Source: a virus
Taxonomy: Duplodnaviria; Heunggongvirae; Uroviricota; Caudoviricetes
Reading direction: 5' to 3' (one strand)
Length of the DNA stretch: 64,000 nucleotides
IMG/VR virus record: IMGVR_UViG_3300015177_000008
Coordinates: 32,001-96,000 of that record
In this document: piece after piece, positions 57,394-60,833 of the stretch
How positions within the stretch are numbered: position 1 is the first letter of the stretch
Layout of the letters: each line of letters opens with the position of its first letter
Notes under the pieces: generated by a model
What the model was told of the DNA's origin: nothing
Databases searched by the model: none
The model's input: only the letters and a program-made list of their open reading frames with translations
Position numbers and translations under genes: made by a program

Positions 57394-58629
57394 TTAACCA
57401 AATATTTTTTGAACAACTTCACGAGCCGCTTGTGCAGAAGCTGAAGGGAGTTTGTTAATGAAAGAACGCTCAATACCTGTCACAAAGTCGCCTCGCATCA
57501 TTCCAATCTTGGCCGACAACAAAAGTTCACGAGGGCCAATTGGCTGACTAATAAGGTGTTCTTCGTATCCATCGCGAACGATACCGGCAAACTTAACCAT
57601 CTTTTCAGCGTATTCATCCACGATGCCTGCATTTATCAACATGTTGATCTCTGCGTCTTTGCTCATGTATTTCACATTCGAAACGATGCCAAAACGCGAA
57701 AAGTTCGCGGCGTTCTGGATGTTTGTACCCTGGTACAAGCCGGTTTCATCACCAGATCCGTTCGTGTTGCCAGTGCCAATGAAAGCAAACCGTTCATGCG
57801 GAGTAATGCGACGCCATTCTGGAGTCGCCTCTTTGATGACCAACGCCTCACCTTCCAGCACTGGCTGATACACGCCAAGAATTTGTGGAAACGCAAAGTC
57901 GTATTCATCCGCGAGGTAAACCCAGCCATGCTTCATTGCGAGCGCAAGCAAGCCAGGCTCGAAATACGTAGAGCCATCACGCGCCAGAATTTGCCCCGTA
58001 ACATGTGCCTCTTCCATTGATGCTGTATGTTGGGCACGGATCAACGGACGATTGAGCAAAGCACATAGCTGTGTAGGCAATGACGATTTGCCTGTTCCTG
58101 CATGACCCCACAAATAGCCAGGTATGCCAAGTTCAAGCATCATGAAAATATCTTTGATCAGTTCGAAGTCGCCATATACGTAGCCCTTCTTCACTTCTGG
58201 AACGAACTCTGGATACGGCGTATTGACGTTGACGCTAACCATGAGCGGCGTCCCACGTTTTGTTCCGAGTTCTTCCACCGTTACGTTTAGCAGTTCGTGA
58301 GCTGCGACCAGATCTGTCTTGTACTCAACTGTGCCTGTGTAACCAGGGCTACTGGTCAAGCCAGAAGATTTGGCCATTTCGCTTTTTTGCTCGGCACGTT
58401 TAGCTTGAATTGCATCAAGTGCCTTTTTCGATAGCGTTGGCTCATCTGGAAACTGCGTTGTGTACATTTTCAGTACGGTGTCAGGATCGGCATCTTTTAC
58501 TGACTCAGGAATGCCCTCGCAATTACCATTGGCTACATGGGACTTAAAATAGTGAAATGATTTGCCGCACCACTTGCAAACAAGGTAATCAGAATGATTT
58601 TTTTCATTTTGCAGTGCAGTAGTCGTCAT
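57394..58629 (-). CDS. CobS-like/MoxR-like AAA+ ATPase
   Basis: Walker A GHAGTGKSS, Walker B-like YLADEYDF; 411 aa. Confidence 0.75.
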   Translation of the reverse strand: MTTTALQNEKNHSDYLVCKWCGKSFHYFKSHVANGNCEGIPESVKDADPDTVLKMYTTQFPDEPTLSKKALDAIQAKRAEQKSEMAKSSGLTSSPGYTGTVEYKTDLVAAHELLNVTVEELGTKRGTPLMVSVNVNTPYPEFVPEVKKGYVYGDFELIKDIFMMLELGIPGYLWGHAGTGKSSLPTQLCALLNRPLIRAQHTASMEEAHVTGQILARDGSTYFEPGLLALAMKHGWVYLADEYDFAFPQILGVYQPVLEGEALVIKEATPEWRRITPHERFAFIGTGNTNGSGDETGLYQGTNIQNAANFSRFGIVSNVKYMSKDAEINMLINAGIVDEYAEKMVKFAGIVRDGYEEHLISQPIGPRELLLSAKIGMMRGDFVTGIERSFINKLPSASAQAAREVVQKIFG

Positions 58630-58690
58630 GCGTTTTTCCTTTGTTCTCTAATGAGCGTTCAACTTCTTATATAAATATACCATTAACTAT

Positions 58691-58708
58691 CGTAAGTGCT
58701 TACTTATC
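58691..58708. promoter_or_regulatory. Family-2 palindrome CGTAAGTGCTTACTTATC upstream of the cobS-dnaE operon
   Basis: About 60 nt upstream of the CobS-like start. Confidence 0.45.
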
Positions 58709-58724
58709 ATTAAGGCTGTTTTAT

Positions 58725-60833
58725 TCACTTCAAAATGATACGAGATAGTTCAGTAACTACAGATGAACCAAGACTATCAACGCTCGTTACCAGGGCATGA
58801 TTTGAGTAAAATCTCTCCGGTGCGTCAGTCATGATGCCAATTGCCATCAAATCAATGTCAGTCTGCGTTTCAATTTGCTTCGCAACCGAACGCAAATGAG
58901 CGTCAAAACCTCTCCCAACAGCCCACGGCGCGCCATCGCTCAGAACAAGCATGATCTTCCTGTCCTCCAAGCGACCGGAAAATAACGATGCAAGGCTGGC
59001 TATGCTTTCACCATCCACGTTATTAAGAAGTGGGAATGTGTAGCCTACGCACCCCATACGTGAGCGAACTTCGCGAGAATTTGCTTTTTCATTCCAATTT
59101 TTGATGATAGGTAGCATTAAAGATTCAAAGCGAGAGAACTCATATTTGATAGCCTTAAGTTCTCCTGCTGCCATATGACTGCCAAATGTAGTGAAGCCGG
59201 TGATAATGTTGGGAACATTTATTCGATCAAGTGCATCGGCGATGGTATATGCACTTGCAAGAGCTAGTTTTATCGTTTCGCCACTCATTGAACCCGATAA
59301 ATCAATCACTTGTTGAACACAGGCGTTAACGGCTTTAGATTCTTCTTTTTTACGAAACACGCGATCATCATTCATTGTTAATCTGTAGATACTTGAACCA
59401 TGAATGCGCCCCCGACGCTGGCCAGGTATAAACTGAACTCTGTTTCTGCTTGCTATTGCACGTTCCAGGTCTTTTGCCAGCGTCGACGAAACACCTGACG
59501 AAAGGTGCTTTTCAATATATTTGTCGAAGAGTTGGTTGCCTTCAGGAACGATGCGATAACGGCTGATTGGATATCCACCTAAATCAATATCGGAGAATGT
59601 TTTAATAAGCCGTTTGATATGGGCTTCTGCCTGATCAATCGAGCCGATGAAGTCGTATGAGCGATTGTATGGCCTGTATTCGCTTTTCGAGCTTTCTGTT
59701 AACTCGCTTTTAATCGTTTCGGATAGCGCATCTTCTGTCATGCCTCCGACTTCATCTTCCATGCTATCCAACTCCTCTAAAGCCTCTTCCAGACTCATTT
59801 TTGACGGAGTTGGAATGTCTGAAGAGCCGTCTTCTGTCGATTTTCTTTTTTCGTGGTCAGTGGTAAATGATTCTGACGCCGCGTTATCAGAAGCACCAGA
59901 ATCTGATACCTCTTTATCATTTTCTGTATCATCGAATATTGTTTCTGATGATTCAGAATTATCTGAATCATCACTGTCGTTATTATCATGTTTGTGCTTA
60001 CTGTGTGATTCTGATTTGATAGATTTGTGATTATCTAACGCTGGGGGTGTCTCATGATCTTCGTTGTCTTCATTGTTTTCTCCAGAGGCATCCGTCTGGT
60101 CAGCGTCTGAAGGATCGGAAGTTTTTCCCGGAGCTGACTCCTTACCTTTGCTTTCACTTTCAGTGTCTTTGAGGATCTTAGCTATGGTCGCAGCCACCTT
60201 TACACAATCCTCGGTGCAAGACATGTTACGCACGGCCACATCGATACCATGTTCTTTTAATAATGAAATTGGTTTCTCAATGACAGGCCAATATTCATCC
60301 ATGAAATCTACGAACGGTGCTTGGCCATCCCAGGCTCTTACAACCGGACAGAGAAAGAAGTTTAGAAAAAGCGCGCGCTGATCTTTACCACAATAAGCAA
60401 TAGCCTCTGAAGCCTTTGGTTTAAAGACTTTTTCGATTATAAGGCGCTGAGTTGCCATCAGATTACGTCTTGTTCCGTTAAAGACCTGACCCATTTTTCG
60501 CTCGATGAACACGTCTTCTAAGGCATTCCATAGCGACCAGGAAGGAACGCGTCCTTTTTCTCTCATTTTGTTGGACACACGAATATCGGTAAACAAAATG
60601 TGAGCAACCTCATGATCGAGAAATCCGCGCACAGCATTCATCAATGCCGGTGTTGCGTTATCCGGGATTGATGGGATGTTTACGAGAATTGGCTCTCCAT
60701 CATCGTTATAGCGTACATAAGCGTCGTCCCCTCGTTCTGCAACAGGGATGTTTTTACCTGAAAGGAGAGCGACTACTCGTTTTACACTGTCACGGAAGTC
60801 CTGAACCTCTTTGATGGAATGTTTTTTAGACAT
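58725..60833 (-). CDS. CobT-like protein with acidic central region and C-terminal VWA-like domain
   Basis: 702 aa; D/E/S-rich low-complexity middle; C-terminal region with VWA-like pattern. Confidence 0.7.
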   Translation of the reverse strand: MSKKHSIKEVQDFRDSVKRVVALLSGKNIPVAERGDDAYVRYNDDGEPILVNIPSIPDNATPALMNAVRGFLDHEVAHILFTDIRVSNKMREKGRVPSWSLWNALEDVFIERKMGQVFNGTRRNLMATQRLIIEKVFKPKASEAIAYCGKDQRALFLNFFLCPVVRAWDGQAPFVDFMDEYWPVIEKPISLLKEHGIDVAVRNMSCTEDCVKVAATIAKILKDTESESKGKESAPGKTSDPSDADQTDASGENNEDNEDHETPPALDNHKSIKSESHSKHKHDNNDSDDSDNSESSETIFDDTENDKEVSDSGASDNAASESFTTDHEKRKSTEDGSSDIPTPSKMSLEEALEELDSMEDEVGGMTEDALSETIKSELTESSKSEYRPYNRSYDFIGSIDQAEAHIKRLIKTFSDIDLGGYPISRYRIVPEGNQLFDKYIEKHLSSGVSSTLAKDLERAIASRNRVQFIPGQRRGRIHGSSIYRLTMNDDRVFRKKEESKAVNACVQQVIDLSGSMSGETIKLALASAYTIADALDRINVPNIITGFTTFGSHMAAGELKAIKYEFSRFESLMLPIIKNWNEKANSREVRSRMGCVGYTFPLLNNVDGESIASLASLFSGRLEDRKIMLVLSDGAPWAVGRGFDAHLRSVAKQIETQTDIDLMAIGIMTDAPERFYSNHALVTSVDSLGSSVVTELSRIILK

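What the first reader, a model, noticed from the sequence alone, without database searches (positions are those of the whole stretch)
57394..60833. CobS-like AAA+ ATPase and CobT-like VWA protein co-transcribed with the polymerase gene
The two genes sit directly upstream of dnaE, on the same strand, behind a family-2 palindrome. No cobalamin biosynthesis genes are present, so a chelatase role is unlikely here. The conserved linkage to the polymerase suggests a replisome-associated or nucleoid-remodelling function, which to my knowledge remains uncharacterised.
Basis: inference. Interest (0 to 1): 0.45.

Follow-up and report, generated by a model that had tools for sequence, protein, structure and literature searches.

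The report
Phage CobS/CobT-like motor pair beside dnaE
Two genes that look like the motor and adaptor of the vitamin-B12 cobalt chelatase sit in the DNA-replication operon of an E. coli phage-plasmid that has no chelatase partner, and the adaptor keeps a zinc-protease motif that real chelatases have lost, so the pair probably remodels or cuts a protein rather than making B12.

Summary
On the minus strand lie cobT-like (58725-60833), cobS-like (57394-58629), a 67-codon ORF and dnaE (53695-57213). They are tightly spaced, follow a conserved palindrome and end at a terminator-like hairpin. The window is an SSU5-like E. coli phage-plasmid. Both proteins are true homologues of the cobaltochelatase subunits CobS and CobT. 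All AAA+ catalytic motifs, the shaft segment and the VWA/MIDAS site are present. They nevertheless score far below NCBI's equivalog cut-offs. A near-identical complete plasmid has no annotated CobN or other cobalamin gene, and its own ribonucleotide reductase is the B12-independent class Ia. The order cobT-cobS-dnaE holds in 26 of 27 informative loci of one large phage supergroup. Across phages generally, cobS and dnaE barely co-occur. In phages that use PolA or T4-type PolB, cobST again sits among replication genes. The N-domain of phage CobT keeps an invariant HExxH...ED...E zincin motif in 127 of 127 representative clusters. The two canonical CobT sequences checked have lost it. My best reading is an ATP-driven motor-adaptor, possibly a peptidase, that acts on an unknown protein client during phage replication. 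No experiment has tested the function. Interest is moderate.

The parts
60887..60919 (-). Palindrome or stem-loop, CTGCGCGAA-N15-TTCGCGCAG, about 55-85 nt upstream of the cobT start, in the gap between orf70 and cobT.
   Evidence: One exact match against 0 expected. Folded as RNA the region gives z = -3.1. Relatives keep it at the same offset, with two compensatory pair changes in the SSU5 type (CTGTACGAACAG-N9-CTGTTCGTACAG) and a variable loop. No U-tract follows. Its role as an RNA hairpin or a DNA operator is unknown.
58725..60833 (-). cobT-like gene (702 aa). It has an N-terminal zincin-like domain, an acidic disordered linker, a shaft segment and a C-terminal VWA/MIDAS domain.
   Evidence: Pfam CobT covers residues 9-294 and CobT_C covers 492-701. 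A profile of phage CobT proteins matches PDB Brucella CobT at E 1e-45 across the shaft and VWA. PHROG 1576 matches. NCBIfam TIGR01651 scores 73.9 bits against a cut-off of 759.
60159..60833 (-). CobT N-domain (aa 1-225). The predicted fold is one helix, a three-stranded sheet and a helical bundle, with HEVAH at aa 74-78 (nt 60600-60614) and N103, E106, D107 and E111.
59514..60158 (-). Acidic, Ser/Asp/Glu-rich linker of CobT, roughly aa 226-440. Its length varies between relatives.
   Evidence: Alignments show it as the variable region. Canonical CobT has a disordered acidic linker of about 90 aa (bioRxiv 10.64898/2026.07.21.739949).
58728..59513 (-). CobT shaft segment plus VWA domain. MIDAS residues are D511, S513, S515 (nt 59289-59303), N605 and D633.
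   Evidence: These residues are invariant in the five-phage alignment; D511, S513, S515 and D633 remain invariant when the canonical CobTs are added. The region aligns residue by residue with Brucella CobT 315-617. The Brucella MIDAS residues are D422, S424, S426, N518 and D546.
57394..58629 (-). cobS-like gene (411 aa): an N-terminal extension of about 140 aa followed by a MoxR/CobS-type AAA+ module.
   Evidence: Pfam AAA_5 matches. PDB Brucella CobS matches at E 4.7e-26, residues 142-411 against 39-315. PHROG 249 matches. TIGR01650 scores 87 bits against a cut-off of 558.55. Walker A G175-S182 (nt 58084-58107), Walker B D241-E242 (nt 57904-57909), sensor-1 N288, R-finger R312 and sensor-2 R367 are invariant against canonical CobS.
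58210..58629 (-). N-terminal extension of CobS (aa 1-140), with a C-x2-C-x4-H-x4-H motif. Canonical CobS lacks it.
   Evidence: Alignment with canonical CobS. The motif is complete in 30 of 46 relatives and degenerate in 13. No Pfam family matches.
57188..57391 (-). orf67, a small Cys-rich ORF that looks translationally coupled to cobS (2-nt gap) and to dnaE (26-nt overlap).
   Evidence: PHROG 6337 matches. Its N-terminal motif GCFG..C..C..C matches the N-terminus of the 180-aa phiK7B1_060 family, which occupies the same position in many relatives.
53695..57213 (-). dnaE, a family-C replicative DNA polymerase alpha subunit and the last gene of the block.
   Evidence: Pfam PHP, DNA_pol3_alpha, DNA_pol3_finger and HHH_6 all match.
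53667..53688 (.). G+C-rich hairpin AAACCCGCC-N4-GGCGGGTTT just after the dnaE stop. It is a likely bidirectional terminator that ends the block.

Best explanation
The two genes encode a phage-type version of the CobS-CobT motor-adaptor pair. By homology with the solved Brucella complex, CobS-like subunits form an ATP-driven AAA+ hexamer. The CobT-like adaptor inserts its shaft into the ring and presents a client-binding face made of its VWA/MIDAS domain and its N-domain. Here the client is not the chelatase subunit CobN, because neither the element nor E. coli has one. Unlike the two canonical CobT sequences I checked, the phage adaptor keeps an intact zincin metal site (HExxH...ED...E). The complex therefore probably remodels a protein client using ATP and may also cleave it or deliver a metal to it. 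It is expressed together with the phage replication genes as the block cobT-cobS-orf67-dnaE. Shown here: the homology, the intact ATPase, MIDAS and zincin motifs, the absence of cobalamin genes, and the gene order and its conservation. Inferred: complex formation, co-transcription, peptidase activity, and a role in replication or the early phase. Unknown: the client.
Confidence: 0.5

Rival explanations
1. This is the default reading in the literature: an auxiliary metabolic gene pair. Viral CobS and CobT would combine with the host's CobN to form a cobaltochelatase and raise cobalamin supply, for example for B12-dependent enzymes.
For: The proteins are genuine homologues of the chelatase subunits. 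The hypothesis is stated for archaeal and bacterial tailed viruses in PMC8651126. Some hosts of related phages, such as Rhizobium and Pseudomonas, use the aerobic B12 pathway (my own knowledge).
Against: Neither the element nor E. coli has CobN. From established knowledge, other hosts of close relatives such as Salmonella, Klebsiella and Yersinia do not use CobN-type chelation either. The element's own ribonucleotide reductase is class Ia and B12-independent. The scores lie far below the equivalog cut-offs. The adaptor keeps a zincin site that chelatase CobT lacks. In cyanophages cobS is a core gene, and authors state that its function is unknown.
Confidence: 0.08
2. A virion-assembly chaperone with a processing peptidase. 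A MoxR-vWA chaperone/co-chaperone pair would help to assemble and proteolytically mature structural proteins. Iyer et al. 2021 proposed this for the metallopeptidase-vWA plus MoxR pair of T4-like jumbo phages, by analogy with tail development in the archaeal virus ATV.
For: The proposal appears in PMC7824862. It uses the same architecture seen here: a MoxR-class AAA+ protein plus a vWA protein with an N-terminal metallopeptidase domain.
Against: In SSU5-like elements, Nickievirus, Rhizobium and Stenotrophomonas phages, ICP2 and Cobavirinae, the pair lies inside the replication gene block and far from, or on the opposite arm to, the morphogenesis genes. In the window it appears translationally coupled to dnaE. 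Gene position is only indirect evidence of timing.
Confidence: 0.15
3. A metal-insertion chaperone for a metalloenzyme of nucleotide or DNA metabolism, in the manner of NorQ-NorD or CoxD-CoxE. The target could be the di-iron NrdB of the phage or host class Ia reductase. The HExxH site would hold the metal rather than act as a protease.
For: MoxR/VWA pairs commonly act in metal-cofactor insertion (discussion of bioRxiv 10.64898/2026.07.21.739949). The element encodes NrdAB and GrxA. In cyanophage S-ShM2 the glutaredoxin gene nrdC lies between cobT and cobS.
Against: ICP2 carries cobST but has no annotated ribonucleotide reductase. The DnaE PHP domain lacks the usual N-terminal HxH metal ligands, so it is an unlikely target (sequence, motif from my own knowledge). 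Nothing links the pair directly to any metalloenzyme.
Confidence: 0.12
4. A host-takeover or counter-defence device. The motor-adaptor-peptidase would recognise and inactivate a host protein early in infection, such as a defence factor, a nucleoid protein or a replisome component.
For: The pair sits in the early/replication block. The peptidase motif is intact. The architecture is a generic client-remodelling one.
Against: PADLOC models give no significant match, only a weak DrmE hit in the low-complexity linker. The wide host range, from cyanobacteria to enterobacteria and haloarchaea, calls for a very conserved or a flexible target. There is no direct evidence.
Confidence: 0.1

Closest known systems
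Aerobic (class I) cobaltochelatase CobNST, subunits CobS and CobT (Brucella melitensis cryo-EM structures 9ujv-9ukh; bioRxiv 10.64898/2026.07.21.739949)
   Same: The CobS-type AAA+ module has identical catalytic motifs. CobT has the same order of parts: N-domain, acidic disordered linker, shaft and VWA/MIDAS. The N-domain has the same secondary-structure plan: one helix, a three-stranded sheet and then helices.
   Different: There is no CobN partner and no cobalamin genes. Gene order is cobT then cobS, against cobS then cobT in the two canonical loci checked. Scores are far below the equivalog cut-offs. The phage CobT keeps HExxH...ED...E, whereas the two canonical CobT sequences checked have lost it. 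The phage CobS has an N-terminal extension of about 140 aa, lacks the C-terminal helix that binds CobT_N in Brucella, and has a shorter helix-2 insert (for the Brucella contacts).
MoxR-class AAA+ and VWA motor-adaptor pairs: CbbQ-CbbO, NorQ-NorD, RavA-ViaA, CoxD-CoxE
   Same: An AAA_5-type ATPase is encoded next to a VWA/MIDAS adaptor. The weaker solved-structure matches of CobS are CbbQ, NorQ and midasin. The motor-adaptor-client logic is the same.
   Different: These are different subfamilies. Their adaptors are not described as having a zincin N-domain. Their clients (Rubisco, NorB and others) are absent from this element.
MoxR AAA+ plus metallopeptidase-vWA pair noted in silico in T4-like ('group 2.2') jumbo phages (Iyer et al. 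2021, PMC7824862)
   Same: The domain architecture is the same, and so is the idea of a chaperone coupled to a peptidase. The cyanophage 'peptidase' next to cobS is the same kind of protein.
   Different: That paper proposes virion assembly. Here and in several other lineages the pair is embedded in the replication module. I did not compare sequences with the accessions cited in that paper, so identity of the families is presumed, not shown.
M48-family zinc metallopeptidases (Ste24/ZMPSTE24, HtpX, Oma1)

Membership tests
Cobaltochelatase subunit CobS (NCBIfam TIGR01650 equivalog) | Whole-protein score at or above the curated equivalog cut-off | tested here: not met
   87 bits against a cut-off of 558.55. 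The match covers residues 141-411 only.
Cobaltochelatase subunit CobS | AAA+ module with Walker A, Walker B, sensor-1 Asn, Arg finger and sensor-2 Arg | tested here: met
   G175-S182, D241-E242, N288, R312 and R367 are invariant in an alignment with two canonical CobS and seven phage CobS proteins. The reference residues come from Brucella CobS.
Cobaltochelatase subunit CobT (NCBIfam TIGR01651 equivalog) | Whole-protein score at or above the curated equivalog cut-off | tested here: not met
   73.9 bits against a cut-off of 759.05. Only the C-terminal part (residues 442-697) matches; the N-domain is not aligned.
Cobaltochelatase subunit CobT | Shaft segment followed by a VWA domain with a MIDAS site | tested here: met
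   Pfam CobT_C matches at E 1.5e-82. A phage CobT profile matches Brucella CobT 315-617 at E 1e-45. D511, S513, S515, N605 and D633 are conserved.
Cobaltochelatase CobNST holoenzyme | A CobN catalytic subunit is available, in the element or in the host | tested here: not met
   The window has no CobN-sized ORF other than dnaE and an inverse autotransporter. The complete near-identical plasmid has no annotated CobN, though its PLSDB gene table is incomplete. E. coli has only the salvage pathway (PMC6249242, and established knowledge). I did not search E. coli genomes for CobN directly.
Cobaltochelatase CobNST holoenzyme | Genomic association with cobalamin biosynthesis, and cobalt-insertion activity | not testable with these tools
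   The association is absent. Activity needs biochemistry or genetic complementation.
MoxR-class AAA+ / VWA motor-adaptor pair | An AAA_5/MoxR-type ATPase gene adjacent to a gene for a VWA/MIDAS protein | tested here: met
   The weaker solved-structure matches are CbbQ, NorQ and midasin.
MoxR-class AAA+ / VWA motor-adaptor pair | Helix-2 and pre-sensor-1 inserts that line the pore and grip the adaptor | tested here: inconclusive
   The alignment shows a shorter segment at the helix-2 insert, and the shaft-contact residues are not conserved. I made no structure of the ATPase.
Zincin (gluzincin, M48-like) metallopeptidase | An HExxH motif with a downstream acidic third ligand | tested here: met
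   H74-E75-x-x-H78 and E106, D107 and E111 are invariant in 127 of 127 representative clusters. Which Glu is the ligand, and the site geometry, were not measured.
Zincin (gluzincin, M48-like) metallopeptidase | Zincin fold | tested here: inconclusive
Zincin (gluzincin, M48-like) metallopeptidase | Zinc binding and proteolytic activity | not testable with these tools
   This needs metal analysis and peptidase assays. Loss of the histidines in phiK7B1 and ANB28 shows that activity is dispensable in some lineages.
SSU5-like phage-plasmid replication module | Near-identity to known members and the shared order dnaB-primase-ligase-...-cobT-cobS-dnaE-SSB-exo-recA | tested here: met
   The region is 99.5% identical to pECOH89 (NC_023916), 98% to phage Cyrano and 75% to SSU5. 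Synteny is shown.

The most novel reading that the evidence does not exclude
Phage 'CobST' is not a chelatase. It is an ATP-driven, MIDAS-targeted zinc metallopeptidase machine: a CobS-like hexamer with a CobT-like adaptor-protease. Tailed phages with three different kinds of replisome would deploy it alongside their replication genes to remodel or cleave a conserved host or phage protein. The cellular cobaltochelatase CobT would then be the related form that has lost the peptidase site and works with CobN.
Probability: 0.22. Interest if true: 0.75.

Novelty: new variant of a known kind. Interest (0 to 1): 0.45.

Why it matters
cobS and cobT are among the most widespread 'auxiliary metabolic genes' reported in phage genomes and viromes, and cobS is close to a core gene in marine myo-cyanophages. 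They are routinely counted as evidence that viruses boost vitamin B12 synthesis. In this phage-plasmid family that reading cannot work as proposed, because there is no CobN and dNTP synthesis is B12-independent. The adaptor also keeps a protease-type metal site that real chelatases have lost. If the pair is a protein-remodelling or proteolytic device tied to phage DNA replication, many virome-based metabolic inferences would need correcting. A new and widely conserved phage function would also become testable in easy E. coli and Salmonella systems such as SSU5, Cyrano and PhiR41_1. The family is also very common in clinical Enterobacteriaceae: 465 plasmid records matched.

Tried and rejected
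1. A Rosetta-stone fusion of CobS with DnaE in Xanthomonas phage JGB6. I rejected it because the record is fragmented into many short ORFs, and the 'DNA polymerase III' label over the CobS match is an annotation artefact.

2. The DnaE PHP domain as the metal-insertion client. This is unlikely because the N-terminus reads MVRTDFS and lacks the usual HxH ligands. That rests on sequence inspection and my own knowledge of the motif.

3. Ribonucleotide reductase as a universal client. ICP2 has cobST but no annotated reductase. I first assumed that the SSU5-type element lacks a reductase. That was wrong: it encodes class Ia NrdAB.

4. Direct sequence searches of the CobT N-domain against solved structures, with a single sequence and with a 30-sequence profile. 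They gave only spurious weak hits and did not reach the Brucella CobT N-domain. The link rests on Pfam PF06213, on hhalign (56% probability, E 1e-4) and on the predicted fold.

5. Foldseek against the PDB found nothing significant.

6. The palindrome as a member of a repeated family. Its arms occur no more often than chance in the window.

7. Sampling diverse relatives. The search for homologous proteins and the search for related loci returned only close SSU5-like relatives. I obtained diversity from the 50%-cluster library and from a degenerate DNA pattern for the zincin motif.

That domain remains unassigned.

9. PADLOC defence models gave no meaningful match.
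Full report
WHAT IS THERE

The window is an SSU5-like phage-plasmid of E. coli. The 4.1-kb region around the finding is 99.5% identical to plasmid pECOH89 (NC_023916), 98% to phage Cyrano of E. coli LF82, 97% to PhiR41_1 and 75% to Salmonella phage SSU5. It matches 465 plasmid records from Escherichia, Enterobacter, Yersinia, Salmonella and other genera.

On the minus strand lie, in order:
- orf70 (60932-61144)
- a palindrome
- cobT-like (58725-60833, 702 aa)
- a 95-nt gap
- cobS-like (57394-58629, 411 aa)
- orf67 (57188-57391), which starts 2 nt after the cobS stop and overlaps the dnaE start by 26 nt
- dnaE (53695-57213)

A 9-bp G+C-rich hairpin follows the dnaE stop. 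The simple scan found no terminator-like site on this strand between cobT and the end of dnaE except a weak 5-bp one inside the dnaE coding sequence. Co-transcription is plausible, and the cobS-orf67-dnaE junctions suggest translational coupling. Neither is shown.

IDENTITY OF THE PROTEINS

Pfam assigns CobT (residues 9-294) and CobT_C/VWA (492-701, E 1.5e-82) to the first protein and AAA_5 to the second. Among solved structures the best matches are the recently determined Brucella cobaltochelatase subunits CobS (E 4.7e-26) and CobT. A small profile of phage CobT proteins aligns with Brucella CobT 315-617, that is the shaft plus the VWA domain, at E 1e-45.

Aligned with two bona fide CobS proteins from Rhizobium and Cereibacter plasmids, the window protein keeps every catalytic element named for Brucella CobS. 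These are Walker A G175-S182, Walker B D241-E242, sensor-1 N288, Arg finger R312 and sensor-2 R367. The MIDAS residues D511, S513, S515, N605 and D633 are also kept.

The proteins are not equivalogs, however. NCBIfam TIGR01650 gives 87 bits against a cut-off of 558.55. TIGR01651 gives 73.9 bits against 759.05 and does not align the N-domain at all. NCBI itself names the family 'cobaltochelatase CobT-related protein'. Some records carry wrong names caused by the Salmonella/Pseudomonas name collision. Cyrano, for example, labels the two genes 'dimethylbenzimidazole phosphoribosyltransferase' and 'cobalamin synthetase'.

WHY IT IS NOT A CHELATASE HERE

In the Brucella holoenzyme the catalytic subunit CobN sits on CobT, between its N- and C-domains, and never touches CobS. 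The window has no CobN-sized ORF apart from dnaE and an inverse autotransporter. The annotation of the near-identical complete plasmid NZ_CP117002 lists no cobalamin gene, although that gene table is incomplete.

E. coli has only the salvage branch. The CobNST step had to be imported to engineer de novo B12 synthesis (PMC6249242). This also rests on established knowledge.

The usual rationale for viral cobST is B12 for nucleotide synthesis (PMC8651126). It does not fit this element, which carries its own class Ia NrdAB, thymidylate synthase, DHFR and a GrxA glutaredoxin. Authors working on cyanophages state that the function of viral cobS is unknown and that the gene behaves as a core gene (PMC9983427).

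THE LINKAGE TO dnaE

At about 35-38% CobS identity the same order recurs in three phages: Pseudomonas phage phiK7B1, Rhizobium phage RHph_N1_10 and Stenotrophomonas phage ANB28. The order is helicase, primase, ligase, cobT, cobS, one to four small genes, dnaE, SSB, exonuclease, recA.

I then sampled 80 viral contigs with a degenerate DNA pattern for the CobT motif and labelled their ORFs against a hand-made reference set. Of the 27 loci with at least 3 kb downstream of cobS, 26 had dnaE starting 0.18-2.0 kb downstream, with CobT identity as low as about 30%. The segments before cobT (gmk, repC, integrase, glutaredoxin) and between cobS and dnaE (a sigma-70-like gene and a 180-aa protein) vary, yet the order persists. 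orf67 shares its Cys-rich N-terminus with that 180-aa protein.

This is one supergroup that shares a whole module, so descent confounds the signal. Across phages there is no co-occurrence. CobS matches 494 phage records, about 434 of them cyanophages. DnaE matches 1214 records, dominated by Pseudomonas, Mycobacterium, Streptomyces and Gordonia phages, groups absent or nearly absent from the CobS counts.

What does generalise is the setting.
- In Vibrio phage ICP2, cobT-cobS opens the replication arm ahead of primase, helicase and PolA, opposite the structural arm.
- In a Cobavirinae podovirus, cobS-cobT precedes PolA and the primase-helicase.
- In cyanophage S-ShM2 the order is 'peptidase' (which is CobT), nrdC, cobS, one small gene, gp45, then gp44 and gp62.
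- One sampled lineage (L102) showed no replication gene nearby.

THE NEW POINT: AN INTACT ZINCIN SITE

The 2026 preprint on Brucella CobSTN reports that the CobT N-domain has an M48C-peptidase-like fold. The window protein carries HEVAH at residues 74-78.

A phmmer search of 1.84 billion cluster representatives with the N-domain found 1122 clusters at E <= 1e-3. In the 127 full-length proteins among the best 150, D73, H74, E75, H78, E106, D107 and E111 are invariant and N103 is nearly so.

The two canonical CobT sequences I checked read DSMALR and DAFALR at this position and have EQ or EA in place of ED. hhalign places them in register, as does the nine-sequence alignment. A 30-sequence profile of the phage N-domain does not detect Brucella CobT even at E <= 10. 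Chelatase CobT is therefore a pseudo-peptidase, and the phage type looks catalytically competent, or at least able to bind metal.

The motif is also intact in the cyanophage, Cobavirinae and Rhizobium-phage proteins. It is lost in phiK7B1 (DSEISK) and ANB28 (DREVST), and it is partly degraded in ICP2. Catalysis is therefore not indispensable everywhere.

Iyer et al. (2021) had already noted in silico a MoxR plus metallopeptidase-vWA pair in T4-like jumbo phages and proposed a role in virion assembly (PMC7824862). The 'peptidase' annotation of cyanophage CobT, which PMC8651126 calls a mistake, in fact reflects a real motif.

OTHER DIFFERENCES FROM CANONICAL CobS

The phage protein has an N-terminal extension of about 140 aa. 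It carries a C-x2-C-x4-H-x4-H motif that is complete in 30 of 46 relatives. The protein ends before the C-terminal helix whose hydrophobic patch binds CobT_N in Brucella. It also has a shorter helix-2 insert.

MECHANISM

Shown:
- homology to CobS and CobT
- intact ATPase, MIDAS and zincin motifs
- absence of a chelatase partner and of cobalamin genes
- operon-like packing with dnaE
- recurrent placement among replication genes

Inferred by analogy with the Brucella structures: a CobS-like hexamer grips the CobT shaft, and ATP-driven motion is passed through the adaptor to a client held between the VWA/MIDAS domain and the N-domain.

Inferred from motif conservation: the N-domain binds a metal and may cleave the client.

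Unknown: the client. I put about 0.5 on 'protein-remodelling motor-adaptor, possibly a peptidase, acting in the replication phase and not a chelatase'. The rivals are the CobN-hijack chelatase (0.08 for this element), the virion-assembly chaperone (0.15), a metal-insertion chaperone for, say, NrdB (0.12), and host takeover or counter-defence (0.10). PADLOC gives no support for the last.

THE PALINDROME

CTGCGCGAA-N15-TTCGCGCAG (60887-60919) is unique in the window. It folds stably as RNA (z = -3.1) and has no U-tract after it. Relatives keep it at the same distance from cobT. SSU5-type elements have CTGTACGAACAG-N9-CTGTTCGTACAG, which amounts to two compensatory pair changes with an unrelated loop. 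It is a genuine conserved element at the head of the block. These data cannot tell an RNA hairpin from a symmetric DNA operator.

VERDICT

The feature is a known, very common and functionally untested phage gene pair. It is best described as a peptidase-competent variant of the CobST/MoxR-VWA motor-adaptor design, embedded in the replication module.

Noticed in passing
window 60887-60919; loci L099, L107, L122, L124, L125, L135, L136, L143, L171: The palindrome upstream of cobT is kept at the same offset in diverged relatives. Two base pairs change on both sides (CG to TA) and the loop is variable in length and sequence. It is either an RNA hairpin or a DNA operator.
   Followed up: partly
window 57188-57391: orf67 is a truncated relative of a Cys-rich protein of about 180 aa (the phiK7B1_060 family). 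In many phages of the supergroup that protein lies between cobS, or a sigma-like gene, and dnaE. orf67 overlaps the dnaE start by 26 nt.
   Followed up: partly
L004 10209-10844; L007 9213-9920; many loci: A sigma-70 region-2 protein is encoded between cobS and dnaE in the Rhizobium, Stenotrophomonas and many metagenomic relatives. It is absent from the enterobacterial lineage.
   Followed up: no
window 58210-58629: The CobS N-terminal extension has a C-x2-C-x4-H-x4-H motif, a putative zinc site. It is complete in 30 of 46 relatives and matches no Pfam family.
   Followed up: partly
window 61397-62881: A tyrosine integrase (61778-62881, minus strand) and a divergent HTH regulator (61397-61783, plus strand) lie just upstream of orf70 and cobT in the E. 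coli lineage. SSU5 has a tRNA-Asn there instead. An integrase is unexpected in a plasmid-borne prophage.
   Followed up: no
window 8993-17061: There are host-like cargo genes. They comprise a 1416-aa inverse autotransporter (intimin/invasin-like; IAT_beta, Invasin_D3, Big_1) and ORFs that the near-identical plasmid annotates as methionine-tRNA ligase (metG) and ApbC.
   Followed up: partly
window 46553-48892: The RecA-like recombinase gene is 779 codons long and is annotated as a LAGLIDADG homing endonuclease in the relative. The SSU5 homologue is about 358 aa. This suggests an intein or homing-endonuclease insertion.
   Followed up: no
window 27158-36303: The element carries its own dNTP-supply and proofreading set: class Ia nrdA (33988-36303) and nrdB (32741-33919), thymidylate synthase (30520-31650), DHFR (29632-30108) and a separate 3'-5' exonuclease (27158-27706). 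A GrxA-type glutaredoxin lies at 63092-63415.
   Followed up: partly
window 53695-54360 and 57170-57213: The roughly 220 C-terminal residues of DnaE match no Pfam family. The PHP N-terminus lacks the usual HxH metal ligands (it reads MVRTDFS). The polymerase probably relies on the separate exonuclease for proofreading.
   Followed up: partly
L006 (Xanthomonas phage JGB6, OQ436456.1): The record is broken into many short ORFs. A CobS-like stretch is labelled 'DNA polymerase III subunit alpha', which is an annotation or assembly artefact and not a fusion.
   Followed up: partly
L090 and L091 (Rhizobium and Cereibacter plasmids): The canonical cobS-cobT pair of these alphaproteobacteria lies next to genes for a BolA-family protein and a J-domain protein, not next to other cobalamin genes.
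   Followed up: no
L102 5073-9996: A distinct viral lineage has the order cobS then cobT, preceded by a histone-deacetylase-family gene and a DUF6744 gene, with no recognisable replication gene nearby. Its CobT gives a weak Peptidase_Mx hit at the HExxH region.
   Followed up: partly
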